Of a DNA stretch of 64,000 nucleotides, positions 9,371-60,060 are shown one piece after another. The stretch is from a virus. Its lineage: Duplodnaviria; Heunggongvirae; Uroviricota; Caudoviricetes. Within the stretch, counting starts at the first letter, position 1; each line of letters begins with the position of its first letter. The position numbers were made by a program, and so were the translations under genes. Below the pieces are notes generated by a model. That model did no database searches. It was not told the origin of the DNA and was given only the letters and a program-made list of their open reading frames with translations. Location: the IMG/VR virus record IMGVR_UViG_3300020048_000033, positions 21,156 to 85,155 of that record. One strand, given 5' to 3'.

Positions 9371-9409
9371 ATGTTAATATTACTAAGTAAAGACGTTAGA
9401 TAATTACTT

Positions 9410-9482
9410 GGCTCCGTAGCCCAAAGGCAGAGGCAAAGGACTTAAAATCCTTACAGTATGGGTTCGAGTCCCATGGGAGCTA
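9410..9482 (+). tRNA. tRNA, class I (short variable loop), anticodon UAA
   Basis: Acceptor GGCTCCG/GGGAGCT (one G-G mismatch at 7-66), T-arm ATGGG-TTCGAGT-CCCAT, anticodon stem AAGGA/TCCTT with loop CTTAAAA. Paralog of the tRNA at 16674. Confidence 0.45.
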
Positions 9483-9581
9483 TTAAAAATAATTGTGATA
9501 GAGTTTACTTTATTCGTTCTGGGAGATTCTTGTGTTTTTCTCTGTATACACAGAGGTGTTTCGGAAGAAAGTTCTGGTTGA

Positions 9582-10331: not shown

Positions 10332-10354
10332 AGGTTTAGTGCAAAATTTTTTAT

Positions 10355-10437
10355 GCAGGTGTGGTGGAATGGTATACACAATAGTTTAAGAGGCTATCGC
10401 CCGTAAGGGCTTGGGAGTTCAAGTCTCCCCACCTGCA
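10355..10437 (+). tRNA. tRNA-Leu (class II, long variable arm; anticodon loop TTAAGAG, anticodon AAG)
   Basis: Acceptor GCAGGTG/CACCTGC perfect, T-arm GGGAG-TTCAAGT-CTCCC, variable-arm hairpin CGCCCGTAAGGGCT. 83 nt. Confidence 0.55.
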
Positions 10438-10457
10438 ATCTCTCGGAGGAATGTTAA

Positions 10458-16124: not shown

Positions 16125-16165
16125 TGCGAGAGTGGTGGAAGTGGCAGACACGCTCGGAGAGTATA
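16125..16165 (+). pseudogene. tRNA 5'-half-like fragment (GCGAGAGTGGTGGAAGTGGCAGACAC...), no T-arm
   Basis: Matches the 5' acceptor and D-arm of the class II tRNA at 10355 (GCAGGTGTGGTGGAATGGTATACAC) but lacks anticodon and T arms. Lies immediately upstream of an HNH endonuclease gene. Confidence 0.3.
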
Positions 16166-16673: not shown

Positions 16674-16747
16674 GGCTCTGTAGCCCAACGGCAGGAGGCG
16701 AATGGCTTAGGACCATTACAGTGTCGGTTCGAATCCGACCCGAGCCA
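16674..16747 (+). tRNA. tRNA, class I, anticodon UAG (Leu-type anticodon; paralog of 9410)
   Basis: Acceptor GGCTCTG/CCGAGCC (one mismatch), T-arm GTCGG-TTCGAAT-CCGAC, anticodon stem AATGG/CCATT with loop CTTAGGA. Confidence 0.5.
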
Positions 16748-16754
16748 CAAACGT

Positions 16755-16827
16755 AGCAGGTTAGAGAAACGGCTAACTCACAAGCCTCATAAGCTTGAAA
16801 TAACTGGTTCGACTCCAGTATCTGCAT
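16755..16827 (+). tRNA. tRNA-Met/Ile2 (anticodon CAU)
   Basis: Anticodon stem CAAGC/GCTTG with loop CTCATAA, T-arm ACTGG-TTCGACT-CCAGT. Acceptor has one mismatch. Confidence 0.45.
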
Positions 16828-19453: not shown

Positions 19454-19740
19454 CGCAATCGGAAGAGGCACAAGACTCGGAAGATTCAGAAAAGGGTTGG
19501 ATATGAACCATAATAAAATATTCTAGTAGTGAAAGGGTTAGGTTACGCTTTTGCTAAAGTATATGTTATCCGTAGACATATGCGAATAACCTCCTTAGGC
19601 TAATACCTTTGGAAATTAAGGAACGGAAAAGCTTTTAGGTTTTAAATGTTTACCTACGTGTAAAGGTGAAAAACTGCCATTTTATTTCTTGTTGGGGTGG
19701 TACCCAACTTGAAGGATTTTGACAAGGGAAAGCGATTGGA

Positions 19741-19812
19741 TTTTCTATAAGCTCAGTGGATAGAGCTATGGTTTTTTAGCCGTGGTCGTTGGTTCGTGTC
19801 CAACTAGAAGAT
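19741..19812 (+). pseudogene. tRNA-like element with a degenerate anticodon arm (TTTTTT loop)
   Basis: Perfect D-arm GCTCAGTGGATAGAGC, T-arm GTTGG-TTCGTGT-CCAAC, acceptor TTTTCTA/TAGAAGA. No pairable anticodon stem. Confidence 0.3.
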
Positions 19813-20220
19813 TCCAGTGATGGTTTACAATTACCAATTGTGGCTATCTCCTTGTTATAAAGAACTTATTGCTAGGGTCAGGCTCCTCTATTGAGAGAGC
19901 GGAATAGTTGGTGTCGAAGCCAGCCTGACCAATAGAGGGGAAGTTCGAATGTCCCCTTGAATACGATATATTAAAGTATACGTTAATATATATTATCGAT
20001 ACCTATGAAGTTTTTTTGGAAAAACAGCGACTATAACGGTCGGAGACAGGGACGGTTCGATGCCCCCCTTAGGTAAAGGTTGATGACAAACCTTAAGTCA
20101 TTATAGAGAAATATTAAAAGGATGGATACAGATGAAACAGATCAAACGTATCCTCAAGAATACATAGCGGTTTTTAAGTCCGTGTATTTTTGAGGTAAAG
20201 CAAACACTTAAAAATATTAC

Positions 20221-20293
20221 GGACTTATAGCTCAATAAGTAGAGCAAGCGGCTTTTAACCGCTAGGTCGGCAGTGCAATTCTGCCTAGGTTCA
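20221..20293 (+). tRNA. tRNA-Lys (anticodon UUU)
   Basis: D-arm GCTCAATAAGTAGAGC, anticodon stem AGCGG/CCGCT with loop CTTTTAA, T-arm GGCAG-TGCAATT-CTGCC, acceptor GGACTTA/TAGGTTC (wobbles). Confidence 0.65.
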
Positions 20294-20337
20294 AATAAAT
20301 TAGTTTTTAATAAAAGCTATTTTTACTATATGTGTAT

Positions 20338-20410
20338 CGGGATGTTGCCTAGTGGCTAAGGCGTCTGGTTTGGGACCAGAAGATCGGAGGTTCAAATCCT
20401 CTCATCCCGA
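20338..20410 (+). tRNA. tRNA-Pro (anticodon UGG)
   Basis: Acceptor CGGGATG/CATCCCG perfect, anticodon stem TCTGG/CCAGA with loop TTTGGGA, T-arm GGAGG-TTCAAAT-CCTCT. Confidence 0.75.
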
Positions 20411-20511
20411 CTAAAGGTTTCGTTGAGACCTTCGAAGATGTGTGACAATTTAACGGGTTCATGGCTATAACAAGCGTTTGGAGGCGTCAACCATTTCACA
20501 TCTTCACTTTT

Positions 20512-20585
20512 GGAGTGTTAGCTCAGTTGGTTAGAGCGTCTGCCTGTTAAGCAGAATGTCCCAAGTTCGAATCTTGGACTCTCCG
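20512..20585 (+). tRNA. tRNA-Asn (anticodon GUU)
   Basis: D-arm AGCTCAGTTGGTTAGAGC, anticodon stem TCTGC/GCAGA with loop CTGTTAA, T-arm CCAAG-TTCGAAT-CTTGG. Confidence 0.75.
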
Positions 20586-20726
20586 TTCCCTCTTTTTTAG
20601 GGTGGATTGAAAGAAAATATAAGGAGAAAAGCTATGAGTAATTTTAAGTTTAGTATCCTCTCTAGTCTTGCTTAACTATTGAAGCTTGTACGTAGAGAGG
20701 TTAAAGAAAACCAATCAATAGTACAA

Positions 20727-20799
20727 GTGGCGGTAGCTCAAGAGGAAGTAGCGATGGACTGAAGATCCATTGATGGGATTTCGAGTATCCCCTGTCGCA
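20727..20799 (+). tRNA. tRNA-Phe (anticodon GAA)
   Basis: Anticodon stem ATGGA/TCCAT with loop CTGAAGA, T-arm GGGAT-TTCGAGT-ATCCC. Acceptor GTGGCGG/CTGTCGC has 3 G-U pairs. Confidence 0.55.
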
Positions 20800-20813
20800 C
20801 TAGAGGTAATTGT

Positions 20814-21068
20814 ATGAATATGAATATCAAAGACCATGTGTCTGATAACAAGAAAGTAAGGTTTGTGTATTTTAAGGAAGGTTCCTTATTTTATGAAACC
20901 GAACTTGGGCTAATTTTTGAGGTACCTTCCTCAGATACTGGAAATGGAACTTTTGGTTCTGTGGAAAAAGCCTTAAACTTTATGAGATGGATTCGTCCTC
21001 AAATAGAGAAAAATAGACTGGCTCAAGAACAAAGTGCCGAAGGATTATTACTTGCTTGTAAATGCTAA
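20814..21068 (+). CDS. hypothetical protein
   Basis: Short ORF between tRNA clusters. Confidence 0.25.
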   Translation: MNMNIKDHVSDNKKVRFVYFKEGSLFYETELGLIFEVPSSDTGNGTFGSVEKALNFMRWIRPQIEKNRLAQEQSAEGLLLACKC

Positions 21069-21309
21069 GAAGATTATAGGGAATATAAAGTATATGTATT
21101 ACAATGACGCAAAGTTTTGTAATAAATTATCTTCAAGTAATCTTACCTTAGAAGTATACATGGTAAGAGTTCTTAGTGATAAAAGTTGGTATAAGGTTTA
21201 TAAAGAAACTTTTAGGGAGTTTAAGAAAACCATGAAGGTTTCCATAAAACTTGCTTTGAGAAAAATTAAAGAGCTTAGTAAAGAAAATAATGTTATTTGC
21301 AGTTTGTAA
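21034..21309 (+). CDS. hypothetical protein
   Basis: Short basic ORF. Confidence 0.25.
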   Translation: MPKDYYLLVNAKKIIGNIKYMYYNDAKFCNKLSSSNLTLEVYMVRVLSDKSWYKVYKETFREFKKTMKVSIKLALRKIKELSKENNVICSL

Positions 21310-21476
21310 AAACTGTTAATATATAAAAGACCAGTCCAGACCCTCGTAAGAGGAAAATCACTAATGGAGTTTCGATTCTCCTAAACAAAAAAAAGGATTA
21401 GTGAGGGACAGACGAACTTCAACCCGTACAGTTGACAGGAGAGCATTATAATGTTCGATGCTCGGTCTTTATTTTT

Positions 21477-21547
21477 GGATGTATTGTATATGGGTATTAC
21501 ACCTGCCTGTCGAGCAGGATAACTGGGTTCGAGTCCCAGTATGTCCG
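21477..21547 (+). tRNA. tRNA-Asp (anticodon GUC)
   Basis: Anticodon stem CCTGC/GCAGG with loop CTGTCGA, T-arm CTGGG-TTCGAGT-CCCAG, acceptor GGATGTA/TATGTCC. Confidence 0.6.
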
Positions 21548-21691
21548 TGGGCTTTATATGAACACTGTGAATTGCTGACTCTGGAAATCTCGCTGATTAC
21601 AGAAAGACCGACATGTTTGTAAGCTAACTTATCAGTTGCCGATAGGTAAAAAAGTTGAGGAAAGTTAACAAGTACTCAGCTTTGTTTTTAA

Positions 21692-21778
21692 CGAAGTTTC
21701 GTCCAGTGGTAAAAATGATGCATCATTAGGACAACACCTTAGGTGGTGGAAACATGGGTTCGATTCCCGTAGCTTCGA
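21692..21778 (+). ncRNA. tRNA-like gene with a palindromic hairpin (AATGATGCATCATT) inserted in the D-loop; anticodon loop ambiguous (CTTAGGT)
   Basis: Acceptor CGAAGTT/AGCTTCG and T-arm ATGGG-TTCGATT-CCCGT are canonical. Body is 87 nt with the insertion. Confidence 0.35.
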
Positions 21779-21785
21779 GATTATT

Positions 21786-21887
21786 GGGAGGGCGACGACG
21801 ATGGCGGTGTCGTTACAGATTAGAAGTCATGACCTGTGAATCTGTACCTTTAGGGAAAACAAGTTGGTTCGAATCCAACTCCACCCA
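21786..21887 (+). ncRNA. long tRNA-like gene (102 nt) with extended anticodon-region hairpin containing palindrome GTCATGAC
   Basis: Acceptor GGGAGGG/TCCACCC, D-arm ACGAC..GTCGT, T-arm GTTGG-TTCGAAT-CCAAC. The anticodon could not be assigned. Confidence 0.3.
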
Positions 21888-22400
21888 CTAAGTTGTTAGG
21901 TCAACTAAAAAAGAATATGCGTCAGTAACCAAATCTAGCAATGGAGCGGTCTGTAAAACCGTGGACTTCGGTCATAGTAGGGGCAGCACCTATCTGGCGC
22001 AAAGGGTTAAAGATTAGTCTTTAACTTTTAATTAAGGAACAAAATATCTGGTAGGTATATTCCTTAATAAATAAATAAACTGGACATCTACCTGTACCAA
22101 AGTAGTATAACGTCTTACTTTGAATACACCAAAAATAATAAACCAAAACGTTTCTGATAGAGTAGGGCCTGATCAGTTTACTCTGTTTGCATAGTAAGGA
22201 ATTATGCCCCCTTAAACAAGGGAAAACTTAAAGAAAACTTCGTAGAGTAATGACGAAGACAAAAGTGCAAAGCATACTCGGCAAGCTTTGTGACTTCATT
22301 CGATTTGCGTAATGAAGCGGAAAACTAAAAGCAACATTACAGTAAGAGCTATTCCCTCTGGAAACATAGAATAGTTCAGGTCTTACTAAAAGAGATTCCT

Positions 22401-22473
22401 GCTTTGATAGACTAGTGGTAAGTCTCCCATCTTTTTTGATGGGAAAACAGAGGTTCGATTCCTCTTTAAGGCT
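22401..22473 (+). ncRNA. tRNA-like gene with poly-U anticodon loop (stem CCCATC/GATGGG, loop TTTTTT)
   Basis: D-arm GACTAGTGGTAAGTC, T-arm AGAGG-TTCGATT-CCTCT, acceptor GCTTTGA/TTAAGGC (2 wobbles). Possibly a UUU anticodon in a 6- or 8-nt loop. Confidence 0.35.
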
Positions 22474-22485
22474 TCTTAGATTTTT

Positions 22486-22557
22486 GGAGTATTCGTCCAG
22501 TGGTTAGGACAACGGCTTTTCATGCCGTTAACGAGGGTTCAATTCCCTCATACTCCT
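22486..22557 (+). tRNA. tRNA-Glu (anticodon UUC)
   Basis: Acceptor GGAGTAT/ATACTCC perfect, D-arm GTCCAGTGGTTAGGAC, anticodon stem ACGGC/GCCGT with loop TTTTCAT, T-arm GAGGG-TTCAATT-CCCTC. Confidence 0.7.
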
Positions 22558-23388
22558 TTTTTATTGCAGGTAAGGTGTTGATGGACACATGTGAGTTTTC
22601 CAAACTTGAGTACTGAGATCGTTACTCAGTACCTGCTTGAAAAGAAGGGTGGTTTAGAAAGTCTCTGGTAGGACTTCTGGATTGATCTTCGTTCGGGGTT
22701 TATGTTTACCAGAACATATATTTCTGAATAGACTTTATAGCTCAGGGGTAGAGCACCGATACACGGGGGGGCGCAGGTTCGAGTCCTGTTGGAGTTAGAT
22801 TTTTGTGGGTCGAAAGATTTGGTGATCCGTGGTTCCTCGATGGAGTTGCAACCAGAGAAGGTAGGACGGGTGGGTACTATGAAGACCCTATCCAAGGTAT
22901 GCAAAATGCAACCCTCATACCCCACAAATTTTAAGTGGTCAACACACTATGACACATCGGATAGACGATGGAAGAATATGTTTTTGTTAATATATTCTCT
23001 GGACACGGTGTTGTACGAACCTTAAGGGATTTAGGTGACTTAGTTTTTCAGAGCAAAAACATGTTTGGTAAGTCTAGCCGATACAAAGTATCGGAGGTGG
23101 GTGTAGAGATACAACCAAATAGAACGTTCAACTCGTTCATAGACTATGTTTTTGGGGTTTTGTTTGGTACCTTGTCTGGTATCGAGAAAAACTTCCCGTC
23201 TCAAGTAGCAATAGCTGTTTGAGCATCATAGGCACCTTGAATAAGTGAGTCAACCTTTGAACCTCCTAGGGACTATTCACCTTAGGAGTTTTTATGCCAT
23301 TATAGCCACACCTTTTATAGTGTGGATTAGAATATGTTTTAAATTGAACTTACCTCCAAGCTTTAATTAATAGCTCTACTAATTAATT

Positions 23389-24252
23389 ATGAGTAAAACA
23401 GAAGCTTGGTACTTAGCTATGGCTAAGAGAAAGGGTAATGGAACAAATCAATTTACTAAAGCAAAGAAATTAGGTTTAGATAAACCTGTAGTTTCAGAAA
23501 ATACTAGAAAAAAGCTTAGTATAGTAGCTACGGGAAGGATACACTCGGAAGACACTAAAAAAAGAATGTCTGAAACCCATAAAAAGAATGGATTGAGTGG
23601 TGGAATTAGACCTCATAAATCAGGATTTGGAATAAAAGGGTACTACGATAATATTTTTTTTGATTCATCTTGGGAATTAGCTTATTATTTGTACTGTAAA
23701 AATAATAATTCTAATATTATAAGAAATACTGACAAGTTCAGATATGAGTATAATGGGGTAAGTCATAATTATACTCCAGATTTTATTGTAGATGGGGTTT
23801 ATGTTGAAATTAAAGGCTATGAAAATGATCAAATGAGGGCTAAGTATTTATCCGTCCCTTCTTTAATTGTTCTTCATAAAAAAGAAATGATGCCAATTAT
23901 AGAACTTGTAAAGAAGGTTTTTGGTGAAAATTTTGTAGAGTTATTTAAAACTGACGTAACAGAAAACTTAAAAAATGTAAGATTGAAACATTTATCTGAG
24001 TTAGTTGAAGCTAAAGAACTTGGAAAACTAGATAAGAATGGAAATATAAGTTTTAAGAAATTGGGGGTTATGGATATATCTTATAGGATTAATCTAGTAT
24101 TATCTTCTAATATAGATTTTTCTAAGTTCGGTTGGGTGAGTAGAGTATCTGAGATACTTAATTTGTCCCACTCCCAAGTACGAAGATTTATGATAGAAAA
24201 TATGGAAAGTTTTTATAAAGAAAAATGTTTTCATAGAAGTTTGCCCGTTTAG
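23389..24252 (+). CDS. homing-endonuclease-like protein (NUMOD-type DNA-binding repeats + PD-(D/E)xK-like nuclease; shares a C-terminal domain with 60688-61752)
   Basis: Repeated SENTRKKLS / SEDTKKRMSETHK motifs, then YTPDFIVDGVYVEIKG (PD..E.K). C-terminal ...NIDFSKFGWVSRVSEILNLSHSQVRRFMIENMESFYKEKCFHRS parallels the C-terminus of ORF 60688. Confidence 0.5.
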   Translation: MSKTEAWYLAMAKRKGNGTNQFTKAKKLGLDKPVVSENTRKKLSIVATGRIHSEDTKKRMSETHKKNGLSGGIRPHKSGFGIKGYYDNIFFDSSWELAYYLYCKNNNSNIIRNTDKFRYEYNGVSHNYTPDFIVDGVYVEIKGYENDQMRAKYLSVPSLIVLHKKEMMPIIELVKKVFGENFVELFKTDVTENLKNVRLKHLSELVEAKELGKLDKNGNISFKKLGVMDISYRINLVLSSNIDFSKFGWVSRVSEILNLSHSQVRRFMIENMESFYKEKCFHRSLPV

Positions 24253-24313
24253 TATAATGGTATTATTCCTGTTTTGTAATCAGGAGACAGGGGTTCGATT
24301 CCTCTAATCGGCA
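24243..24313 (+). ncRNA. tRNA-like gene with 9-nt anticodon loop (TTTTGTAAT); overlaps the stop of the upstream CDS
   Basis: Acceptor GCCCGTT/AATCGGC (one mismatch), T-arm AGGGG-TTCGATT-CCTCT, anticodon stem TCCTG/CAGGA. Confidence 0.35.
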
Positions 24314-24319
24314 GTATTA

Positions 24320-24372
24320 AAGATGCACACAGCGAGTAAAATCAATTTTTGTTTGAAAAACCTTGCATCTTG
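24320..24372 (+). repeat. hairpin + ACAGCGAGTAA motif element (stand-alone copy between tRNAs)
   Basis: AAGATGCA-CACAGCGAGTAAAATCAA...-TGCATCTT. The same ACAGCGAGTAA core recurs at 25104, 26128, 30894 and (variant) 32650. Confidence 0.4.
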
Positions 24373-24378
24373 TTTTTT

Positions 24379-24452
24379 GGGGATATAGCTCAGTTGGTTA
24401 GAGCATCGGTTTTGCAAATCGAGGGTCAGGGGTTCGAATCCCCTTTTCTCCA
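24379..24452 (+). tRNA. tRNA-Ala (anticodon UGC)
   Basis: G3-U70 wobble in acceptor GGGGATA/TTTCTCC, D-arm GCTCAGTTGGTTAGAGC, anticodon stem TCGGT/ATCGA with loop TTTGCAA, T-arm AGGGG-TTCGAAT-CCCCT. Confidence 0.8.
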
Positions 24453-24460
24453 TCATTTTT

Positions 24461-24547
24461 GGAACGATGTTCGAGAGGTTTAAGAAAACAGTTTGCTAAA
24501 CTGTCGTATGTGAAAGCATACCGCTGGTTCAAATCCAGCTCGTTCCG
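24461..24547 (+). tRNA. tRNA-Ser (anticodon GCU), class II
   Basis: Acceptor GGAACGA/TCGTTCC perfect, anticodon stem ACAGT/ACTGT with loop TTGCTAA, long variable arm, T-arm CTGG-TTCAAAT-CCAG. Confidence 0.8.
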
Positions 24548-25043
24548 TAAGGTTGGATACACAATCTAAACCGTGTACCATGTTCTCTCTGGACAATGCA
24601 AGTCGTTGTTCCTTTGGAATGGGGTGGCTGTTGAACTCAGCTAGTGTATTCAATGTATTGATTAAGAAGAAGAACTTGGCTTATGATAGTGAAGCTATCA
24701 CTCTTCGCAACCGAGAGTGAAACGTTATCTTAAAAGGCATGGTTAGAAATCCAGTACGAGATATGGTACCTATCGTAGACTATTGGAGAGTTTCAGTTAA
24801 GTTTTTCTTTTTTATTATTGCGGGTGTATCCCCTCACTCTGATAAGGTGTAGAAAGGGTATCCGGTTACAGGGTGGTTCAAGTCCACCGACCCGCACTTC
24901 TTGTTTTAGCTTAGAGGTAGAGCGACTGGGATGACAGTGAGACGGTGTATCGAAACCGCCAAACAGGATTACAAAAATTGTTTCCCACCTTAAGGAAGAA
25001 GAGTTGTCCAGCTCTTGATTCTTATAAAACAATTTTATTTTTT

Positions 25044-25162
25044 GGGGCGGTAGCTTAGTTGGTAGAGCAACAGTATGTAACAAAAGAGGTTTGTAAAAAT
25101 CTCATACAGCGAGTAATAACAATTGGAACTGTGTGTCGGTGGTTCGAATCCACCCTGCCCCA
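25044..25162 (+). ncRNA. tRNA-like gene interrupted by a ~50-nt insertion carrying the ACAGCGAGTAA motif
   Basis: Acceptor GGGGCGG/CTGCCCC, D-arm GCTTAGTTGGTAGAGC, T-arm GGTGG-TTCGAAT-CCACC. Anticodon stem halves ACAG...CTGT are separated by CAAAAGAGGTTTGTAAAAATCTCATACAGCGAGTAATAACAATTGGAA. Confidence 0.4.
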
Positions 25163-25384
25163 TCTCATTAAGAATTTACAGGAGTAAGTTGAAATGCAAA
25201 TGTTTGACAAAGTTAAACTTAATTTTGACCACAATAGACTTTTAACTGATGATATGATTTCTTGGATGGAAGAACATAAAACTTCAATCTTTAAGATTGA
25301 AAAAATATCTGATGAATCTGTTAAACTTTTCAAGATAAACTTTTGGATTACCAAAGATTTGTTAATCTTACTGTAGAATTACTT

Positions 25385-25457
25385 GCCTTGTTATTTCAGT
25401 AGTTAGAATGAGATCCTTACACGGTCTAGGTCGTAGGTGCGAATCCTACACAAGGTA
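25385..25457 (+). tRNA. tRNA-Val (anticodon UAC)
   Basis: Acceptor GCCTTGT/ACAAGGT, anticodon stem AGATC/GGTCT with loop CTTACAC, T-arm GTAGG-TGCGAAT-CCTAC. Confidence 0.55.
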
Positions 25458-25611
25458 TTATGGAAAATGATAAAGAGATAAAATGTTCAGTATGTGAAGA
25501 TTCAGGTTGGGTTCTACATCAAGTATTCCAAGACCTTATACACGCAGATATGAGTGTATTCGTTCATAAGCTTTATGTTGAATGTGTTTGTAAGAAAGAG
25601 AAGAAGACTGC

Positions 25612-25938
25612 ATGAAGAAATTAATTGTTCTTGGTTTAGTATTAGCTATATGTTTTCAAACTTATGGTCAACAAGTAGAAAGTTCTGGAACTATTATTCT
25701 TACTTCTAAACGTCTTGATTGGACTGAATATGAACTTAAGATTATTACAGAAGTGCCGGTAATTGTTGACTATACAACGCTTTGTGAAACTTCCTTGAAC
25801 GAATTAAATTCTTCAGTGAAAAAATACATTGCTATGGGATGGCAACCCTACGGGGGAGTAACTTTTAGTTTGACTAATGGAAGCACCTATACAAATACCC
25901 ATTTGTATGTCCAAGTACTAGTAAAGTATAAGAAATAG
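25612..25938 (+). CDS. hypothetical secreted protein
   Basis: N-terminal signal peptide MKKLIVLGLVLAICFQTYG. Confidence 0.35.
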   Translation: MKKLIVLGLVLAICFQTYGQQVESSGTIILTSKRLDWTEYELKIITEVPVIVDYTTLCETSLNELNSSVKKYIAMGWQPYGGVTFSLTNGSTYTNTHLYVQVLVKYKK

Positions 25939-26064
25939 ACTTTCAAAGAGTTTTCAGACTTTTTAACACTGAATATTTGAGAGATAGAAACTCTTAAGAA
26001 GGGTGGACTTCAAATAGCTCATGAACTTTTACTAACGATTGAAAGCGTCAAGTAAAAGTTTCTT

Positions 26065-26186
26065 GCTCCTTTAACTCAGCGGTAGAGTCCGAAAAAACAA
26101 AATGAACTTTGAAAAAAGTTCACACAGCGAGTAACAAAAATACCCATTTAAGGTCGTGGTCGTAGGTTCGATTCCTACAGGGAGCT
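26065..26186 (+). ncRNA. tRNA-like gene interrupted by a ~45-nt insertion (hairpin GAACTTTGAAAAAAGTTC + ACACAGCGAGTAAC)
   Basis: Acceptor GCTCCTT/AGGGAGC, D-arm ACTCAGCGGTAGAGT, T-arm GTAGG-TTCGATT-CCTAC. 122 nt overall. Confidence 0.4.
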
Positions 26187-26566
26187 GAAAATAACTTTGT
26201 GTGATGGAAGGGAATCATCCGGCAGTGCGTAAGTCCGAAATGTACAAAGGTCGAGGTACTGAGAAGCCTAGGGGCGAAGCTTATGAAATAGGCTAATGTG
26301 AAGAGTTCGAGTCTCTTCGAAAGTTATTTTTCTTTTGTTTATCTAAGGTTGAAAAAGCCTTTTATAATATTTTATGTTCTGGCTAGAGTGGAAAAGGGGC
26401 AAGGCGATAGAGCTTTATTCTTAACTGGATAATAGTAGTCTTAGGTAATCCCAAACCTCTTAGTCAACATGGTGGATGTTGGGGAGTAGACAAACCCAGT
26501 TGCCTGTGGAGCAACTATTGTAATGATTTCGACAGTGCAAATCTGTTCATCCACCCTTTCTGTTAT

Positions 26567-26640
26567 GCTGAATTAGAAAAGAGGTTTAATTCAATCGGCT
26601 CATATCCGGTCATGCGTAGGTTCGATTCCTACATTCAGCA
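26567..26640 (+). tRNA. tRNA-Met/Ile2 (anticodon CAU)
   Basis: Acceptor GCTGAAT/ATTCAGC perfect, anticodon stem ATCGG/CCGGT with loop CTCATAT, T-arm GTAGG-TTCGATT-CCTAC. Confidence 0.75.
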
Positions 26641-26772
26641 AAGTTGTGAATAATTAAGGCTACAACTAATTATCTATAAAGGAGAACACATGAAGTAGAT
26701 TTTTACATTAGGACCTTGAAGTAAATTGTTTTATTTTCTAAAAACATTTTTACACAATTCAAGGAGCAATTT

Positions 26773-28767: not shown

Positions 28768-28839
28768 GCCCCTATGGTGAAGAGGTATCATTTCGGAATC
28801 TAAATCTGATAGTCGAAGGTTCGATTCCTTCTAGGGGCA
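28768..28839 (+). tRNA. suppressor-type tRNA, anticodon CUA (reads UAG amber)
   Basis: Acceptor GCCCCTA/TAGGGGC perfect, T-arm GAAGG-TTCGATT-CCTTC, anticodon stem TCGGA/TCTGA with 7-nt loop ATCTAAA (U33 and A37 present). Anticodon C-T-A at 28800-28802. Confidence 0.65.
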
Positions 28840-29545: not shown

Positions 29546-29693
29546 GTACAGGTTGCTGTTGAACCATAAAATCATTTGAAGTTTTCCCCGTAAACATGGG
29601 GGTGTTTCTGTGACTCGATCTTCGAAGTTGAGTTAAATGAAAATAAATGGTGTCAACTTTCGGAGGTTCAAATCCTCCATTCCTGATTTTATT

Positions 29694-29778
29694 GGAGCGG
29701 TATGTTAGTGGCTATACAGGCGGCTTTGAATACCGTTTATACCGTGAGGTATCGTGAGTTCGAGTCTCACCCGCTCCG
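29694..29778 (+). tRNA. tRNA-Ser (anticodon UGA), class II
   Basis: Acceptor GGAGCGG/CCGCTCC perfect, anticodon loop TTTGAAT, variable-arm hairpin ATACC-GTGA-GGTAT, T-arm GTGAG-TTCGAGT-CTCAC. Confidence 0.6.
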
Positions 29779-29858
29779 TAGTTTATAACTAAAGGACATA
29801 ACTCTTTTAGAGTTACTTCTACTAATTAAGTATCTTTTTAATTGGTAGGTAGTCCGAA

Positions 29859-30809: not shown

Positions 30810-30843
30810 AAAGGTACCGTGGGTTCGAATCCCACCCGCTCCG
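30810..30843 (+). pseudogene. tRNA 3'-half fragment (T-arm GTGGG-TTCGAAT-CCCAC + acceptor strand CCGCTCC)
   Basis: Identical acceptor 3' strand to tRNA-Ser(UGA) at 29694. No 5' half is present. Confidence 0.35.
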
Positions 30844-31065
30844 TACATTAAAATGATATTTGATTCTTTAGTTTTATCTTAAAGACAAATACAGCGAGTA
30901 AAACACTATGAATTGGTGAATAGATTCGTCTATTTCCTTGGTTTTGACTTTACCTACAAACAAAAGTTGAGCGGTGGCTTTTCCATCGATGAGGTAAGAA
31001 CAACCAATAACAGAAATGTCGTGTTGGAATATCGGATACATTTTAAGTTGTCTTGTTTTCTTTGG

Positions 31066-31138
31066 GAAGTAGCTCATTGTGTAGAGTACCCTGCATTTGG
31101 TGGGGAGGTAGGTGGTTCAATTCCATCCTTTCCAATTT
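31066..31138 (+). ncRNA. tRNA-like element (T-arm GGTGG-TTCAATT-CCATC, acceptor TGGGAAG/CTTTCCA), anticodon arm not resolvable
   Basis: D-arm GCTC...GAGT and T-arm are canonical. The middle region does not fold into a standard anticodon stem. Confidence 0.3.
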
Positions 31139-32507: not shown

Positions 32508-32690
32508 ACACTTCTTAATTTAAGAAGATTAGGTTGATAAAGGTCAAATCTTTATCAACTTTTAGATTAAAGATTCTTACAGCAATTAAAATTACCCTTC
32601 AATGGATAACCATTTTTTAGAATCTTGTCTTCAAAAAGAATAAAAGGTCACACAGCAAACTAACAACACTTTAAATGTTAAAAACGAACT

Positions 32691-34214
32691 TTGTATTTTG
32701 GAGGAATTATTATGGAAACAGTAGCAAAATTTTTGAGGAACGTACCGGACTCAAAAACAGAAAATGGGGCAGATACTTTTAGTACGTCTCTTAATGCAAA
32801 TTTAGATTTATTTGCAATGGGTGGAGCACTTCGTTCACGTAGCGAAAGTGATGTAAAAGAACTTGTATTTAAAGCATTTATGGAAGATCCTAAATTGGCA
32901 ATAAAAAATCTTTTTCGAATTCGGGATGCTCGTGAGGGCTGTGGCGAGAGAAATACTTTCCGAATTGCTCTCAACAAACTCGGTAATGAGAAACTTTTTA
33001 AGACTTCGGTATTAGAAAACTTTCTTGGAAATACTGACAAGCTTCGTCTTATTGCAGAATACGGGCGTTGGGATGATCTATTTTCACTTTTTGGTACTCA
33101 GTATGAATCCAAAGTCTTCGCTCTGATTAAATCTCAATTGCTTGAAGATATAAGTGAAATGAATATCAAGGGTGAGAAAGCGAAGATTTCCCTTCTTGGT
33201 AAGTGGCTTCCTTCTATCAATGCTTCTAATGTGGAAACACGTAAGCTTGCATTTAAGATTGAAAAGGCTCTTGACTTAAATCATAAGACCTATCGTCAGA
33301 CACTTTCACGTCTTCGGGACCAGTTGAATGTTCTCGAAAGGAACATGTCAGCAAAAGACTATGACGCAATTGAATATCACAAGGTTCCTTCAATGGCTTT
33401 CTTAAAACACATGAAAGCATTCAAGACTCATGATGCCACAAAGTTTTCTAGCTTTATGGAAAAGGTAGCAAAGGGAGAAGCTAAGGTAAATACTGGTGTA
33501 CTTTTCCCTTCTGATATCGTCCACAAACTTACCGATGGAGACCCTTGGAATTGCAGAAGTACTCCAAGCTCAGAAGTTGCAGAACTCTCTTTGCTTTGGG
33601 ATAATCTTCCAAACTATTTGGGTGATGCCGGTGAGCAAGCCTTGGTAATCGCAGATACCTCTGGTTCTATGTCGGGTACACCGATTGAAGTAGCTCTATC
33701 TCTTGCAATGTATTATGCAGAACGTAATCTTGGCCCTTGGAAAGATTATTTCATCTCCTTCTCTGCAAGACCTACGTTGCAACACATCTCGGGTTCAAAC
33801 CTGCTTGAGAAGTTTAGAAATATGGCTAATACTGGATGGGACTCGAATACCAATGTTGAGTTGGCTTTCAAACTTATTCTTGATATCGCTATTAAGAATA
33901 AACTTACGCAGGATGAACTTCCTAAGAAGTTGTATATCGTTTCGGATATGGAATTTGATTCCTGCTGTGGTACCAACTATTCCAATGCAAAGGAATTGTT
34001 TGAAGCTCAGGGCTATAAACTTCCTACCGTTGTTTTCTGGAATGTAGATGCAAGAAGTGACCAAAGCCCTGTAAGGTTTGATGAACAGGGGACAATGTTG
34101 GTATCTGGGTATTCTGCATCCGTTTTCAGGAATCTTGTAGGTAAAGAGGAATGCACTCCGGTTTCTTTGATGCTTGAAGTTCTGAATGGACCTCGGTATA
34201 ACGATATTATTTAA
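32691..34214 (+). CDS. DUF2828 / TROVE-like + von Willebrand factor A (MIDAS) domain protein (Ro60-like architecture)
   Basis: C-terminal vWA MIDAS motif LVIADTSGSMSG. 507 aa. N-terminal region has a TROVE-like pattern. Overall architecture resembles Ro60/Rsr. Confidence 0.45.
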   Translation: MYFGGIIMETVAKFLRNVPDSKTENGADTFSTSLNANLDLFAMGGALRSRSESDVKELVFKAFMEDPKLAIKNLFRIRDAREGCGERNTFRIALNKLGNEKLFKTSVLENFLGNTDKLRLIAEYGRWDDLFSLFGTQYESKVFALIKSQLLEDISEMNIKGEKAKISLLGKWLPSINASNVETRKLAFKIEKALDLNHKTYRQTLSRLRDQLNVLERNMSAKDYDAIEYHKVPSMAFLKHMKAFKTHDATKFSSFMEKVAKGEAKVNTGVLFPSDIVHKLTDGDPWNCRSTPSSEVAELSLLWDNLPNYLGDAGEQALVIADTSGSMSGTPIEVALSLAMYYAERNLGPWKDYFISFSARPTLQHISGSNLLEKFRNMANTGWDSNTNVELAFKLILDIAIKNKLTQDELPKKLYIVSDMEFDSCCGTNYSNAKELFEAQGYKLPTVVFWNVDARSDQSPVRFDEQGTMLVSGYSASVFRNLVGKEECTPVSLMLEVLNGPRYNDII

Positions 34215-38388: not shown

Positions 38389-38507
38389 TGTTTAATACTT
38401 GGGGCTTTGCTGAAATTGGAAAACAGGTTTGGAGTTTTATCCAGATGGGTGGCACGACTTTCTTTGAATGTCAGTCCAGCTTTACGGTTTCAAATCCCGT
38501 AAGTTTC

Positions 38508-60036: not shown

Positions 60037-60060
60037 ATTTCAAAAAGGAGTTTCTTGAAC

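What the first reader, a model, noticed from the sequence alone, without database searches (positions are those of the whole stretch)
19512..26650. Very large, unusual tRNA complement: canonical tRNAs interleaved with non-canonical tRNA-like genes (odd anticodon loops, palindromic insertions)
Between 19.5 and 26.7 kb, and again at 9.4, 10.3, 16.7, 28.8, 29.7, 31.1, 38.3, 59.7-60.5 and 62.5 kb, there are at least 20 canonical tRNAs: Lys, Pro, Asn, Phe, Asp, Glu, Ala, Ser(GCU), Ser(UGA), Val, two Met(CAU), Leu(AAG), Leu(UAA), Ile(UAU), Arg(ACG), Arg(UCU), Gln(UUG). There is a comparable number of tRNA-like genes with perfect acceptor and T-arms but aberrant middles. These have 6-, 8- or 9-nt anticodon loops, poly-U loops, and palindromes (AATGATGCATCATT, GTCATGAC, CTTATAAG) inserted in D or anticodon regions. 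Other oddities are class I tRNAs with Leu-type anticodons UAA/UAG (9410, 16674), a class II tRNA with anticodon UUG (62494), and tRNA half fragments (16125, 38107, 30810). This goes beyond a normal phage tRNA island. It suggests tRNA-derived regulatory RNAs, decoys against tRNA-targeting host defences, or frameshift/suppressor tRNAs.
Basis: seen in the sequence. Interest (0 to 1): 0.7.

Follow-up and report, generated by a model that had tools for sequence, protein, structure and literature searches.

The report
Phage tRNA island hiding tRNA-shaped RNAs
A large phage carries about 26 usable tRNA genes mixed with tRNA look-alikes, and three of those belong to two widespread, unannotated phage RNA families: partner RNAs of a Ro60-like protein built on a normal tRNA frame, and a tRNA for isoleucine or arginine that lacks the normal cloverleaf.

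Summary
ARAGORN and Rfam together tRNA-like genes in the window, all on the + strand. Manual and comparative work adds about 10 more tRNA-shaped elements and three fragments. About 20 are canonical and about 6 are atypical but look able to decode. The rest cannot decode normally.

The aberrant set is mixed, and two parts of it can be explained.

1. 25044-25162 and 26065-26186 are full tRNA frames whose anticodon loop is replaced by a covarying hairpin followed by UAACAGCRA. This stem-plus-motif module also occurs in three non-tRNA small RNAs and as one leader motif copy in the window. It marks the neighbourhood of a Ro60-like gene (window 32712-34214): 63 of 82 protein-selected loci carry it on the gene's strand, against 12 of 82 on the opposite strand. 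These RNAs are Y-RNA/YrlA-like partners in an unpermuted, open-acceptor topology. They are not intron-bearing tRNAs.

It has an acceptor stem, a T arm and one long arm that ends in a perfect anticodon loop. ARAGORN misses 117 of 121 sites.

Several other oddities are conserved divergent tRNAs, or fragments lying beside homing-endonuclease genes. About ten elements remain unexplained. Binding, processing and decoding are all inferred, not shown.

The parts
6614..6688 (+). tRNA-like element. It has a 7-bp acceptor and a perfect T arm. The D arm is replaced by a 7-bp hairpin and the anticodon arm ends in a tetraloop. It cannot decode.
   Evidence: Rfam tRNA 21.9 bits, below the gathering score. 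Acceptor and T arm. Fold.
7255..7316 (+). Three-arm mini tRNA-like element: acceptor, one hairpin and a T arm. Unexplained.
   Evidence: T arm. Sequence read. No relatives among the fetched loci.
9409..9483 (+). Class I (short variable loop) tRNA with anticodon UAA and a 3-bp D stem. Probably a Leu-codon decoder.
   Evidence: Homologous class I UAA/UAG tRNAs occur in other phage contigs, L201 and L108.
10354..10438 (+). Canonical class II tRNA-Leu(AAG).
16125..16158 (+). 5' fragment of a class II Leu-like tRNA (acceptor 5' strand plus D arm), just upstream of an HNH endonuclease ORF (16213-16671).
   Evidence: Sequence. Weak, sub-threshold HNH domain match (HNH_3 22.1 bits vs cutoff 24.8).
16674..16827 (+). 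Class I tRNA with anticodon UAG (16674-16748), followed by canonical tRNA-Met(CAU) (16755-16827).
19740..19816 (+). tRNA-like element with a 6-nt U-rich anticodon loop (UUUUUA) and an AU-rich 8-bp acceptor. Unexplained.
   Evidence: ARAGORN calls it 'tRNA-???'. Rfam 36.9 bits. L003 has a class II element with a similar 6-nt U-run loop.
20221..20800 (+). Four canonical tRNAs: Lys(UUU), Pro(UGG), Asn(GUU), Phe(GAA).
21476..21548 (+). Canonical tRNA-Asp(GUC).
21692..21778 (+). tRNA-Glu-like frame with a 15-18 nt palindromic hairpin inserted in the D loop and a 4-bp/6-nt anticodon arm. Unexplained.
   Evidence: Rfam tRNA 35.9 bits, with an 18-nt insert in the D loop. Fold.
21786..21890 (+). Long tRNA-like element with a tRNA-Sec-like shape, a 7-bp anticodon stem and a 17-19 nt loop that contains GTCATGAC. 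Unexplained.
   Evidence: Fold. tRNA-Sec model only 18.8 bits against a gathering score of 47.
21918..22004 (+). Class II tRNA-Tyr(GUA) with an atypical D arm and a GGCAGCA T loop. Missed by both tools. Probably the phage's functional tRNA-Tyr.
   Evidence: Fold. Its ends and position match the tRNA-Tyr(GTA) of relative L002 at 1180-1264.
22401..22473 (+). Well-formed tRNA with an 8-nt anticodon loop, CUUUUUUG. Unexplained; a +1 frameshift reader is possible.
   Evidence: (50 bits). No relatives found.
22486..22637 (+). Canonical tRNA-Glu(UUC) (22486-22557) and atypical tRNA-Gly(UCC) (22566-22637).
   Evidence: L002 has a similarly low-scoring Gly(UCC).
22731..22797 (+). tRNA-like element with normal acceptor, D and T arms but a truncated anticodon region of 18 nt. 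Cannot decode. Unexplained, possibly degenerate.
   Evidence: Rfam 44.2 bits; not called by ARAGORN.
24242..24314 (+). Canonical tRNA-Thr(UGU).
24320..24371 (+). Mini Y-like RNA. An 8-bp terminal stem (24320-24327 with 24364-24371) encloses CACAGCGAGUAA, and a U run follows.
   Evidence: Motif. Fold. The same architecture sits at the syntenic spot in L002 (3011-3072).
24378..24548 (+). Canonical tRNA-Ala(UGC) and tRNA-Ser(GCU).
24820..24897 (+). Three-way-junction tRNA. It has an acceptor stem (6 bp plus a G-G mismatch), a short helix (CCC/GGG) that encloses a 4-bp stem with loop CUGAUAA (anticodon GAU, Ile), a GG-containing connector and a canonical T arm. It has no D arm.
   Evidence: Missed by ARAGORN and Rfam. 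Homologues. Family of at least 120 viral contigs. Covariation.
24900..24968 (+). tRNA-like element with a canonical D arm, a 4-bp/6-nt anticodon arm and a degenerate T loop. Unexplained, possibly degenerate.
   Evidence: No relatives.
25044..25162 (+). tRNA-topology Y-like RNA 'N'. It has a 7-bp acceptor, canonical D and T arms and a 5-bp anticodon stem. The loop is replaced by a hairpin (25086-25103) followed by AU-ACAGCGA (25106-25112).
   Evidence: Rfam tRNA 53.8 bits over 119 nt. Model R1 94.3 bits. The ortholog at L003:433-548 shows compensatory changes in the anticodon stem.
25384..25458 (+). Canonical tRNA-Val(UAC).
26065..26186 (+). tRNA-topology Y-like RNA 'O'. Same design as N, with hairpin TGAACTTT/AAAGTTCA followed by C-ACAGCGA (26124-26130) and only a 3-bp anticodon-stem remnant.
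   Evidence: Not called by ARAGORN or Rfam. Model R1 92.8 bits. Acceptor, D and T arms.
26190..26330 (+). 141-nt structured element with a 9-bp terminal stem and a T-arm-like hairpin at its 3' side. Unexplained.
   Evidence: No relatives.
26472..26641 (+). tRNA-His(GUG) with G-1:C73, an extra variable arm and an atypical T loop (26472-26556), followed by canonical tRNA-Met(CAU) (26566-26641).
   Evidence: L002 and L003 have canonical His at the syntenic position.
28768..28839 (+). Amber-suppressor-type tRNA (anticodon CUA), canonical in structure.
   Evidence: Conserved at L003:3210.
29693..29779 (+). Canonical tRNA-Ser(UGA).
30810..30843 (+). 3' fragment (T arm plus acceptor 3' strand) duplicating the end of tRNA-Ser(UGA). 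It lies after the cysteine-rich ORF 29859-30548, which matched no Pfam family.
   Evidence: Sequence. T arm. No Pfam match for the ORF.
30882..31054 (+). Larger Y-like RNA, about 173 nt. A terminal stem AAGACAA/UUGUCUU has UACAGCGAG directly after its 5' arm.
   Evidence: Motif. The stem is conserved with two compensatory changes at syntenic positions in L003 and L002.
31062..31136 (+). tRNA-like element with loop CAUUUGG (A at position 33). ARAGORN calls it Lys(UUU). Unexplained.
   Evidence: (42.2 bits). L002 and L003 carry a 125-nt mini tmRNA-like element at this position instead.
32570..32626 (+). Mini Y-like RNA directly upstream of the Ro60-like gene. An 8-bp terminal stem (32570-32577 with 32619-32626) has UACAGCAA after its 5' arm.
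32651..32662 (+). Further copy of the motif (CACAGCAA), in the leader about 50 nt before the Ro60-like start codon. No clear stem partner.
32712..34214 (+). Ro60-like protein (Pfam DUF2828 plus DUF7788; HEAT-repeat ring plus vWA domain). Proposed partner of the module-bearing RNAs.
   Evidence: Pfam and PHROG. AF2 model pLDDT 89.4. Full-length Foldseek hits to Ro60 structures, TM 0.5-0.58, E 1e-8.
38097..38389 (+). Class II Leu-like frame with an insertion of about 107-128 nt after the anticodon region (38097-38296; unexplained), followed by tRNA-Leu(UAA) (38307-38389).
59701..60555 (+). Canonical tRNA-Ile(UAU), tRNA-Arg(ACG) and tRNA-Arg(UCU).
62494..62699 (+). Class II (long variable arm) tRNA with anticodon UUG (62494-62576) and canonical tRNA-Gln(UUG) (62627-62699).
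   Evidence: L002:18770 is a Gln-like tRNA (U1:A72, G73) with a long variable arm.

Best explanation
The window comes from a phage of about 164 kb. Its closest cultured relatives by the Ro60-like protein are Bacillus siphophages of about 165 kb. It carries a genuine tRNA island of about 26 genes that look able to decode.

The 'aberrant' tRNA-like genes are not one thing. Two conserved RNA families account for the clearest cases.

(a) 25044-25162 and 26065-26186 are non-decoding RNAs built on a complete tRNA frame. They have an open 7-bp acceptor stem with a discriminator base, and normal D and T arms. A hairpin followed by single-stranded UAACAGCRA replaces the anticodon loop. The same stem-plus-motif module forms the terminal stem of three non-tRNA small RNAs in the window (24320-24371, 30882-31054, 32570-32626). 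It appears once more in the leader of the Ro60-like gene.

I infer that this module is the binding site of the Ro60-like protein (32712-34214). On that reading these RNAs are its Y RNAs. They correspond to bacterial YrlA, but are not circularly permuted. They would therefore be cut by RNase P and RNase Z and receive CCA like a tRNA. The tRNA body would be the effector or recognition end, as proposed for YrlA.

(b) 24820-24897 is the local member of a widespread phage family of tRNAs with a three-way junction. The D arm is missing. A short helix forms between the positions where the D stem would start and the variable region, and it encloses the anticodon arm. I infer that in this phage it is the tRNA-Ile(GAU) and complements the canonical Ile(UAU).

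Other oddities are divergent but conserved tRNAs (Tyr, Gly, His, the class I UAA/UAG tRNAs, the class II UUG tRNA) or fragments next to homing-endonuclease-type ORFs. About ten elements remain unexplained and may be decaying copies.

Shown: sequence, structure conservation, covariation, genomic association and the protein fold. Inferred: RNA-protein binding, processing, aminoacylation and decoding.
For: Family (a):
- The motif ACAGCGAGTAA occurs 4 times in the window against 0.5 expected by chance.
- A structure-aware scan of loci fetched only by Ro-like protein similarity found the same tRNA+hairpin+ACAGC design next to the gene, often in 2-4 tandem copies.
- On 47 distinct sequences, 96.2% of cells are paired. 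All 7 pairs of the inserted hairpin change on both sides. 0 of 500 shuffles reach the observed covariation score or percentage paired, and slid controls give about 40% paired.
- Model R1 separates members (64-100 bits; window copies 94.3 and 92.8) from ordinary tRNAs (60 bits or less).
- In 82 protein-selected loci, 63 carry the stem+motif module within 1.5 kb on the gene's strand, against 12 on the opposite strand. That is 153 modules against 12.
- The reverse test used DNA only. 54 of 120 viral loci hit by the pattern contain the Ro-like gene, as do 20 of 25 loci with a strong R1 hit.
- Permuted relatives have the order T arm, closed acceptor stem-loop, D arm, with their ends in the module stem. 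They share the module and give weak YrlA hits of 24-40 bits.
- The protein model matches Ro60 over its full length.
- The cultured phage PBC2 has three unannotated modules between its tRNA cluster and its DUF2828 gene. A TTGACA-17-TATAAT promoter precedes the first.

Family (b):
- BLAST homologues occur in two unrelated contigs.
- With the loop left free, 116 of 121 sites have NAU anticodons and 5 have Arg anticodons (ACG, UCU, CCU). All have C32, U33 and A37.
- 96.7% of cells are paired, and the one unconstrained helix-X pair shows all four Watson-Crick types.
- ARAGORN misses 117 of 121 sites.
- Where a canonical tRNA-Ile lies in the same locus, its anticodon is the complementary one in 10 of 12 loci.
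- In the cultured crAss-like phage Kehishuvirus tikkala, the element fills an unannotated 90-nt gap in a tRNA array. It carries GAU there, beside an annotated Ile(UAU).
Against: - No expression, end-mapping, binding or charging data exist for any of these RNAs.
- In the window, N and O lie 6.5-7.6 kb from the Ro-like gene, not adjacent to it. Synteny with L002 and L003 shows the same spacing.
- The O-equivalent in L003 (1905-1994) has an extended anticodon arm but no ACAGC motif.
- The motif differs from the GNCGAA Ro60-binding motif of YrlA, and the protein is only a remote structural relative of Ro60. 'Y RNA' is therefore an analogy.
- The 'open' module criterion is loose, with 12 opposite-strand hits.
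- For family (b), the sequences were collected with a pattern that fixes many positions, which inflates apparent conservation.
- The window copy is a divergent member of family (b): G1-C72 rather than U1-A72, and a G-G mismatch at pair 7:66.
- A three-way junction may not fit the ribosome or IleRS.
- About ten elements are not explained at all.
Confidence: 0.65

Rival explanations
1. 25044-25162 and 26065-26186 are ordinary tRNA genes, for example tRNA-Tyr(GUA), interrupted by short introns that are spliced out to give decoding tRNAs.
For: ARAGORN in intron mode calls 25043-25164 as tRNA-Tyr(gta) with a 46-nt intron at position 37/38. The anticodon stem is kept by compensatory changes between the window and L003.
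Against: - No anticodon is conserved between orthologs. The window reads AUGUAAC at the 5' edge of the loop and L003 reads ACCAAAA, without U33.
- The 'intron' carries a hairpin and motif that are conserved and covary across very distant phages.
- In permuted relatives, the same module holds the RNA termini and there is no anticodon loop.
- The module also occurs without any tRNA frame.
- It tracks the Ro-like gene.
- 45-55 nt is far too short for a group I intron, and Rfam reports no intron family there.
- A class II tRNA-Tyr candidate already exists at 21918.
Confidence: 0.06
2. The AAAG-N5-6-YACAGCGAG motif is a DNA-level signal, such as a phage-specific promoter or operator, that happens to lie inside or between tRNA genes.
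For: All strong copies are intergenic, lie on the gene strand and often sit upstream of genes or tRNAs. The sequence loosely recalls single-subunit RNA polymerase promoters. This resemblance is from my own knowledge and was not tested.
Against: - The flanking arm always has a complementary partner that covaries.
- The motif is conserved between phages whose Ro-like proteins share only 38-46% identity and whose GC content is very different.
- In PBC2 a normal sigma-70-type promoter lies upstream of the first module rather than overlapping it.
- The motif is tied to one particular gene family rather than to operon starts in general.
Confidence: 0.05
3. Most of the aberrant tRNA-like genes are decaying duplicates and debris. 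They would be produced by the many homing endonucleases in the island and have no function. Candidates are 19740, 21692, 21786, 22731, 24900, 26190, 31062, 38097, 6614 and 7255.
For: The tRNAs are interleaved with HNH, GIY-YIG and DUF559-type endonuclease ORFs and a TnpB. Clear 5' and 3' tRNA fragments lie beside two ORFs, one a weak (sub-threshold) HNH match and one of unknown family. None of these ten elements has a detectable relative among about 330 fetched loci.
Against: Their acceptor and T arms are intact, with full pairing. That would be unexpected for neutral decay. Relatives L002 and L003 also carry tRNA frames with expansions in the D loop, anticodon arm or variable region, so expansions are a lineage habit. 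This rival does not conflict with the main explanation. It covers the unexplained remainder.
Confidence: 0.35
4. The three Lys-like variants with abnormal loops are decoys or nuclease-resistant substitutes for tRNA-Lys(UUU), which host anticodon nucleases target. Alternatively, the 8-nt-loop gene is a +1 frameshift or quadruplet decoder. The loops are 6 nt at 19740, 8 nt at 22401, and A33 at 31062.
For: Three U-run loops sit beside one canonical Lys(UUU). Relative L003 also has a U-run 6-nt loop. The window encodes tRNA-related enzymes: PTH2, an RNase T-like exonuclease and an MBL-fold protein. That phage tRNAs evade anticodon nucleases through loop changes is a published hypothesis (van den Berg et al. 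2023, eLife), which I cite from memory and did not read here.
Against: No relatives of these genes were found, and no nuclease or target is identified. Loops of 6 nt are not known to decode. The window shows no recoding or frameshift signal.
Confidence: 0.12

Closest known systems
YrlA (Y RNA-like A; Rfam RF02553). Bacterial and phage Y RNAs that bind Ro60/Rsr and mimic tRNA (Chen et al. 2014, PMC4201824; Wang et al. 2018 preprint, 10.1101/312249).
   Same: It is encoded near a Ro60-type ring protein on the same strand, often in several copies. It has tRNA-like D, T and acceptor helices, and the protein-binding module sits where the anticodon stem would continue. Permuted relatives of the window's RNAs give weak YrlA hits.
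   Different: Published YrlAs are circularly permuted. The T arm comes before the D arm, the acceptor is a closed loop and there is no free CCA end. The window's RNAs keep the tRNA order, with an open 7-bp acceptor and a closed module hairpin. The conserved motif is UAACAGCRA rather than GNCGAA. The partner protein is DUF2828/DUF7788, which is related to Ro60 only by fold. No window element reaches any YrlA score.
Ro60-Y RNA particles of phages, e.g. Thermus phage phiLo Ro60 with Yrl1 and Yrl2 (PMC12135203).
   Same: A phage-encoded Ro60-fold protein with small RNAs encoded directly upstream. 9kop and 9l5y are among the best structural matches.
   Different: The phiLo Yrls are stem-bulge-stem RNAs with a CGAA motif and are not tRNA-shaped. 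Sequence identity of the proteins is 15%.
Canonical bacterial and phage tRNAs (Rfam RF00005).
   Same: Acceptor stem, T arm with a UUCRANY loop, discriminator base and position inside tRNA arrays. For 24820-24897, a 7-nt loop with C32, U33 and A37 and a sense anticodon.
   Different: N and O have no anticodon loop. 24820-24897 has no D arm: a three-way junction replaces the cloverleaf. Standard finders miss or mislabel all three.
D-armless mitochondrial tRNAs, e.g. metazoan mt-tRNA-Ser(AGY) (reviewed in PMC4013460 and PMC7609411).
   Same: A functional tRNA without a D arm. The elbow contact is presumably supplied by other nucleotides.
   Different: The phage family has a helix that pairs the D-replacement nucleotides with an enlarged variable region and so encloses the anticodon arm. 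It keeps a fully canonical T arm. It is found in phages of bacteria, where, according to PMC11551756, all known tRNAs are cloverleaves. Function is untested.
Large tRNA islands of jumbo and large phages, with homing endonucleases.
   Same: Tens of tRNAs on one strand, interleaved with HNH and GIY-YIG genes and small ORFs. A suppressor tRNA is present.
   Different: This alone does not explain the conserved non-decoding or non-cloverleaf members.

Membership tests
tRNA (RF00005), for 25044-25162 and 26065-26186 | Acceptor stem, D arm and T arm of a cloverleaf | tested here: met
   A 7-bp acceptor, canonical D arm and T arm. Rfam scores N at 53.8 bits.
tRNA (RF00005), for 25044-25162 and 26065-26186 | 7-nt anticodon loop with U33 and a conserved anticodon | tested here: not met
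   The loop is replaced by 49-55 nt. Orthologs share no anticodon.
YrlA (RF02553) | Encoded next to a Ro60-type gene on the same strand | tested here: met
   For the family. In the window, N and O are 6.5-7.6 kb upstream, and the mini RNA at 32570 is adjacent.
YrlA (RF02553) | tRNA-like D, T and acceptor helices joined to a protein-binding stem at the anticodon position | tested here: met
YrlA (RF02553) | Circularly permuted order: T arm, closed acceptor stem-loop, D arm, with the RNA ends in the Ro-binding stem | tested here: not met
   The window RNAs have the normal tRNA order. A scan for the permuted order finds none in the window but finds it in about 70 other loci.
YrlA (RF02553) | Conserved GNCGAA(N)G motif in the 5' strand, and a score at or above the gathering score (69 bits) | tested here: not met
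   The motif is UAACAGCRA. No YrlA hit in the window at E<=10. Permuted relatives score 24-40 bits.
Ro60 / TROVE proteins, for 32712-34214 | HEAT-repeat ring plus vWA domain fold | tested here: met
   AF2 pLDDT 89.4. Full-length Foldseek matches to 1yvr, 9kop, 9l5y and 2i91.
Ro60 / TROVE proteins, for 32712-34214 | Sequence-level membership (TROVE domain) | tested here: not met
   Pfam assigns DUF2828 plus DUF7788. phmmer finds no PDB chain at E<=1.
Ro60 / TROVE proteins, for 32712-34214 | Binds Y RNA or misfolded RNA | not testable with these tools
   Only co-occurrence is shown.
Intron-containing tRNA (group I or bulge-helix-bulge introns) | Group I catalytic core of at least 200 nt, or an intron whose removal restores a 7-nt anticodon loop | tested here: not met
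   The inserts are 45-55 nt. No intron family was reported by Rfam. No restorable conserved anticodon. A bulge-helix-bulge fold was not formally modelled.
Functional tRNA, for 24820-24897 and its family | Anticodon loop with U33 and a purine at 37, a sense anticodon, a 7-bp acceptor with discriminator, and a T arm | tested here: met
   In the window copy, acceptor pair 7:66 is a G-G mismatch.
Functional tRNA, for 24820-24897 and its family | Four-arm cloverleaf with a D arm | tested here: not met
   Only about 8 nt lie between the acceptor and the anticodon stem. Helix X encloses the anticodon arm.
Functional tRNA, for 24820-24897 and its family | Aminoacylation and decoding on the ribosome | not testable with these tools
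   Indirect support only: complementary isoacceptors in 10 of 12 loci and placement inside tRNA arrays.
tRNA-Sec (RF01852), for 21786-21890 | Score at or above the gathering score; UCA anticodon in a 7-nt loop | tested here: not met
   18.8 bits against 47, and a 19-nt loop.

The most novel reading that the evidence does not exclude
The three-way-junction family represented by 24820-24897 is a real, charged, ribosome-active tRNA for Ile or Arg. It would be the first non-cloverleaf tRNA class known outside organelles. It is common in phages and invisible to standard tRNA finders. In parallel, 25044-25162 and 26065-26186 would be CCA-ended, tRNA-topology Y RNAs that bring a Ro60-like ring to tRNA-handling machinery.
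Probability: 0.4. Interest if true: 0.85.

Novelty: new variant of a known kind. Interest (0 to 1): 0.7.

Why it matters
1. tRNA finders mislabel the tRNA-topology Y-like RNAs as intron-bearing tRNAs, or miss them. They miss the three-way-junction family almost entirely. Phage tRNA inventories and codon-usage arguments are therefore biased, especially for the rare AUA codon.

2. An unpermuted YrlA-like RNA with an open acceptor stem bears on how tRNA-like Y RNAs arose. It suggests insertion of a protein-binding module into an anticodon loop, rather than origin from a tRNA dimer. It also makes it possible to test whether such RNAs receive CCA or are charged.

3. The Ro60-like protein is encoded in 702 cultured phage records, infecting Escherichia, Mycobacterium, Listeria, Staphylococcus, Bacillus and other hosts. 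Its RNA partners are unannotated, so a widespread phage ribonucleoprotein has gone unnoticed. It can be studied in tractable phages such as Bacillus phage PBC2.

4. A natural non-cloverleaf tRNA working in bacterial translation would contradict the current statement that all bacterial tRNAs are cloverleaves.

Tried and rejected
- Near-identity DNA search of the island against cultured phages found only a 56-nt tRNA match.
- A search for relatives of the Ro-like protein in viral contigs using single-sequence patterns found nothing.
- A homolog search with the small ORF 26773-27267 gave only the source contig and one fragment, so that search was wasted.
- An exact-protein lookup returned only the same sequence.
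- ARAGORN intron mode was noisy. It produced implausible calls, such as introns spanning two genes, and I did not use it beyond the Tyr call.
- I considered an IS200/IS605 end, a MITE or a self-cleaving ribozyme for the hairpin+ACAGCGAG motif. I dropped these because Rfam has no hit. The motif also proved to be tied to the Ro-like gene and to a covarying stem.
- I considered a promoter reading and rejected it (see the rival explanations).
- TAG recoding was tested because of the CUA suppressor. There is no signal in this window.
- An exact search for the 8-nt-loop anticodon arm in viral contigs returned only terminator hairpins.
- One viral scan was lost to a mis-counted pattern, with 15 Ns instead of 13.
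- Two review papers on bacterial Y RNAs could not be retrieved.
- BLAST of 21 odd elements against all fetched loci found relatives only for 24820-24897 and the class I UAA/UAG tRNAs. The other hits were T-arm fragments.

Full report
**What is there.** The window has 35% GC, and nearly all genes lie on the + strand. It carries phage-type genes:
- a type I-C cas3/cas8c/cas7 set
- a TnpB
- GIY-YIG, HNH and DUF559 endonucleases
- a DinG-like helicase
- PTH2
- an RNase T-like exonuclease
- an MBL-fold protein

The source contig is 163,769 bp. By the Ro-like protein, the closest cultured relatives are Bacillus siphophages of about 165 kb, such as PBC2, at 41-43% identity.

ARAGORN finds 28 tRNA genes. 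Rfam RF00005 finds 28 at the gathering score and 30 with laxer filters. The union is 31, all on the + strand. A scan for T arms with a matching acceptor stem, followed by folding, adds about ten more tRNA-shaped elements and three fragments. The corrections are listed in the observation check.

**Sorting the set.** About 20 genes are canonical.

Six are atypical but have a normal 7-nt anticodon loop:
- class I tRNAs with UAA and UAG anticodons (9409, 16674), which have homologues in other phage contigs
- a class II tRNA with UUG (62494). Its counterpart in relative L002 is a Gln-like tRNA (U1:A72, G73) with a long variable arm.
- Gly(UCC) at 22566 and His(GUG) at 26472
- a class II Tyr(GUA) at 21918, which both tools miss but which matches the tRNA-Tyr of L002 in ends and position

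The remaining elements cannot decode in the ordinary way.

**Family (a): tRNA-topology Y-like RNAs.** The 11-mer ACAGCGAGTAA occurs four times in the window, against 0.5 expected. Two copies lie inside tRNA frames, at 25044-25162 ('N') and 26065-26186 ('O'). In each, 49-55 nt replace the anticodon loop: a hairpin, then 1-2 nt, then ACAGCGA.

The nearest syntenic relatives have Ro-like proteins 55-57% identical to the window's and a much higher GC content. They keep the N-type gene, with compensatory changes in the anticodon stem and the same motif, but with no shared anticodon.

I fetched 80 loci by similarity to the Ro-like protein alone. A structure-aware scan of them found the same design right next to that gene in many contigs, often as 2-4 tandem copies with different tRNA bodies.

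I built covariance model R1 from 22 sequences. It scores members at 64-100 bits (N 94.3, O 92.8) and ordinary tRNAs at 60 bits or less. On 47 distinct members, 96.2% of cells are paired. All seven pairs of the inserted hairpin change on both sides. None of 500 shuffles reaches the observed covariation score or percentage paired, and slid controls give about 40% paired. The single-stranded UAACAGCAA directly 3' of the hairpin is nearly invariant.

**The module and the Ro60-like gene.** The same stem+motif also occurs 'open', where the arm before the motif pairs with a partner downstream. Among the fetched loci this gives two kinds of RNA:
- mini or larger RNAs, also found in the window (24320-24371, 32570-32626, 30882-31054)
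- in other phages only, circularly permuted tRNA-like RNAs with the order T arm, closed acceptor stem-loop, D arm. This is the published YrlA architecture (PMC4201824; 10.1101/312249).

Rfam's YrlA model gives these permuted relatives only 24-40 bits against a gathering score of 69. It gives nothing in the window.

The association was tested in both directions:
- In the 82 protein-selected loci, 63 carry a module within 1.5 kb on the gene's strand and 12 on the opposite strand (153 modules against 12).
54 of these contain the Ro-like gene within the short locus. So do 20 of the 25 loci with a strong R1 hit.

The window protein (32712-34214) is DUF2828+DUF7788 by Pfam and has no PDB relative by sequence. 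Its AlphaFold model (pLDDT 89.4) nevertheless matches Ro60 structures over its full length, including the Thermus phage phiLo Ro60 (TM 0.5-0.58, E 1e-8).

In cultured phage PBC2, three unannotated modules lie between the tRNA cluster and the DUF2828 gene. A sigma-70-type promoter precedes the first.

I conclude that N and O are Y RNA-like partners of this Ro60-like protein. They correspond to YrlA but are not permuted. The acceptor stem is open, as in a tRNA, and the protein-binding stem is closed. Binding and processing are inferred. [quoted passage not shown]

**Family (b): a three-way-junction tRNA.** BLAST of the odd elements against all fetched loci gave full-length matches for 24820-24897 in two unrelated contigs. 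With the 13 loop and stem positions left free, almost the same loci came back. Of 121 sites, 116 have loops reading CU-NAU-A (UAU 98, GAU 16, CAU 2). The other five read CU-ACG/UCU/CCU-AA. All are well-formed anticodon loops for Ile or Arg.

The fold is as follows:
- an acceptor stem of 7 bp, often with an extra -1:73 pair
- UA
- a short helix that encloses a 4-bp stem and a 7-nt loop
- a GG-containing connector of about 12-14 nt
- a canonical T arm

96.7% of cells are paired. The one helix-X position that the pattern did not fix shows CG, UA, AU and GC, with no unpaired case. Many 'invariant' pairs are fixed by the search pattern and say nothing.

ARAGORN misses 117 of 121 sites. In five loci checked, Rfam reaches its threshold at one site only. 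The elements sit inside tRNA arrays.

Where a canonical tRNA-Ile is present in the same locus, it carries the other Ile anticodon in 10 of 12 loci. In many loci the UAU form accompanies a canonical Arg(UCU). From general knowledge, AUA and AGA are classic rare codons in bacteria.

In the cultured crAss-like phage Kehishuvirus tikkala, the element (anticodon GAU) exactly fills an unannotated 90-nt gap between tRNA-Trp and tRNA-Met. An annotated Ile(UAU) lies nearby. The window shows the same pairing: GAU at 24820 and a canonical UAU at 59701.

I did not find this architecture in a review of non-canonical tRNAs. A 2024 paper states that all known bacterial tRNAs are cloverleaves (abstract of PMC11551756). 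Decoding is inferred only.

**The remainder.** The following have intact acceptor and T arms but no detectable relatives:
- 19740 (6-nt loop)
- 21692 (D-loop hairpin in a Glu-like frame)
- 21786 (Sec-like shape with a 19-nt loop; 18.8 bits)
- 22401 (8-nt loop)
- 22731 (truncated anticodon arm)
- 24900
- 26190-26330
- 31062 (A at position 33)
- 38097-38296 (very large insertion)
- 6614 and 7255

Relatives L002 and L003 also carry tRNA frames expanded in the D loop, anticodon arm or variable region. Expansion is therefore a habit of this lineage, but function cannot be judged.

Two tRNA fragments lie beside ORFs. The 5' fragment at 16125 sits just before an ORF with a weak, sub-threshold HNH match. 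The 3' fragment at 30810 follows the cysteine-rich ORF 29859-30548, which matched no Pfam family.

**Alternatives.** The intron reading (ARAGORN's 'tRNA-Tyr with a 46-nt intron') fails for four reasons:
- no anticodon is conserved
- the insert is itself conserved and covaries
- the module exists without a tRNA frame and at RNA termini
- it tracks one gene family

The promoter reading fails on the covarying stem partners and on conservation across very distant phages. Decay probably explains part of the remainder. Decoy and frameshift ideas for the U-run loops could not be tested.

**Verdict.** The finding is real and more interesting than a large tRNA island. Its interest lies in two conserved, unannotated RNA families rather than in a single exotic mechanism. 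Both are new variants of known kinds: Y RNA/YrlA and tRNA. All functional statements await RNA end-mapping, binding and charging experiments. These are feasible in cultured phages that carry the same elements.

Noticed in passing
window 42854-49191 and 49387-51358 (also near 53450): A phage-encoded type I-C CRISPR-Cas set (cas3, cas8c/Csd1, cas7). An array of about 21 repeats of GTCACTCCCCGTGCGGGGGTGTGGATTGAAAC follows, with further degenerate repeats downstream.
   Followed up: partly
L003:4257-4381 and L002:~8358-8485: A conserved element of about 125 nt with tmRNA-like 5' and 3' ends (GGGGAUGUUUUGAAUCGAC ... GGACGGGG..CCCCCAUCUCCA) lies upstream of the Band_7/Ro-like genes in both relatives. 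Rfam tmRNA gives 28.8 bits, below threshold. No reading frame is conserved between the two. The window has the tRNA-like 31062-31136 at this position instead.
   Followed up: partly
window 28768-28839; L003:3210-3280: An amber-suppressor-type tRNA (anticodon CUA) is conserved between the phage and a relative. The window shows no sign of TAG recoding, and TAG ends only 3 of 50 long ORFs. Late genes outside the window were not examined.
   Followed up: partly
window 13300-15045 and 28353-28724: Three genes could serve tRNA end-processing or rescue: an MBL-fold protein (weak Apyc1/RNase Z-like match), an RNase T-like DEDD exonuclease and a PTH2-type peptidyl-tRNA hydrolase.
   Followed up: no
window 17118-18392 (- strand): A TnpB/Cas12f-like ORF, the only long gene on the minus strand, inside the tRNA-rich region.
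   Followed up: no
L208 (Bacillus phage PBC2, NC_071040.1) 8503-8916: Three tandem stem+ACAGCAA small RNAs, none annotated, lie between the 17-tRNA cluster and the DUF2828 gene of a cultured phage. TTGACA-17-TATAAT precedes the first. tblastn finds the protein in 702 cultured phage records.
   Followed up: partly
L003:15146-15220 and L002:15237-15315: D-armless tRNA-like genes in the two relatives. The L003 copy has a CUUCUAA (UCU, Arg) loop and a helix that encloses the anticodon arm. They look like divergent members of the three-way-junction family.
   Followed up: partly
L002:3326-3454, L002:2382-2482, L003:1905-1994, L003:3790-3925: The relatives carry tRNA frames with large insertions. 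One has about 58 nt in the D loop, two have an extended anticodon arm without the ACAGC motif, and one is a class II frame of about 135 nt upstream of tRNA-Ser(UGA). They are unexplained.
   Followed up: no
window 23389-24252, 27267-28352, 29000-29545, 39598-40275, 60688-61752: At least five endonuclease-type ORFs (PHROG endonuclease, GIY-YIG/NUMOD, a weak endonuclease I/DUF559 match, HNH, DUF559/MTES_1575) are interleaved with the tRNA genes.
   Followed up: no
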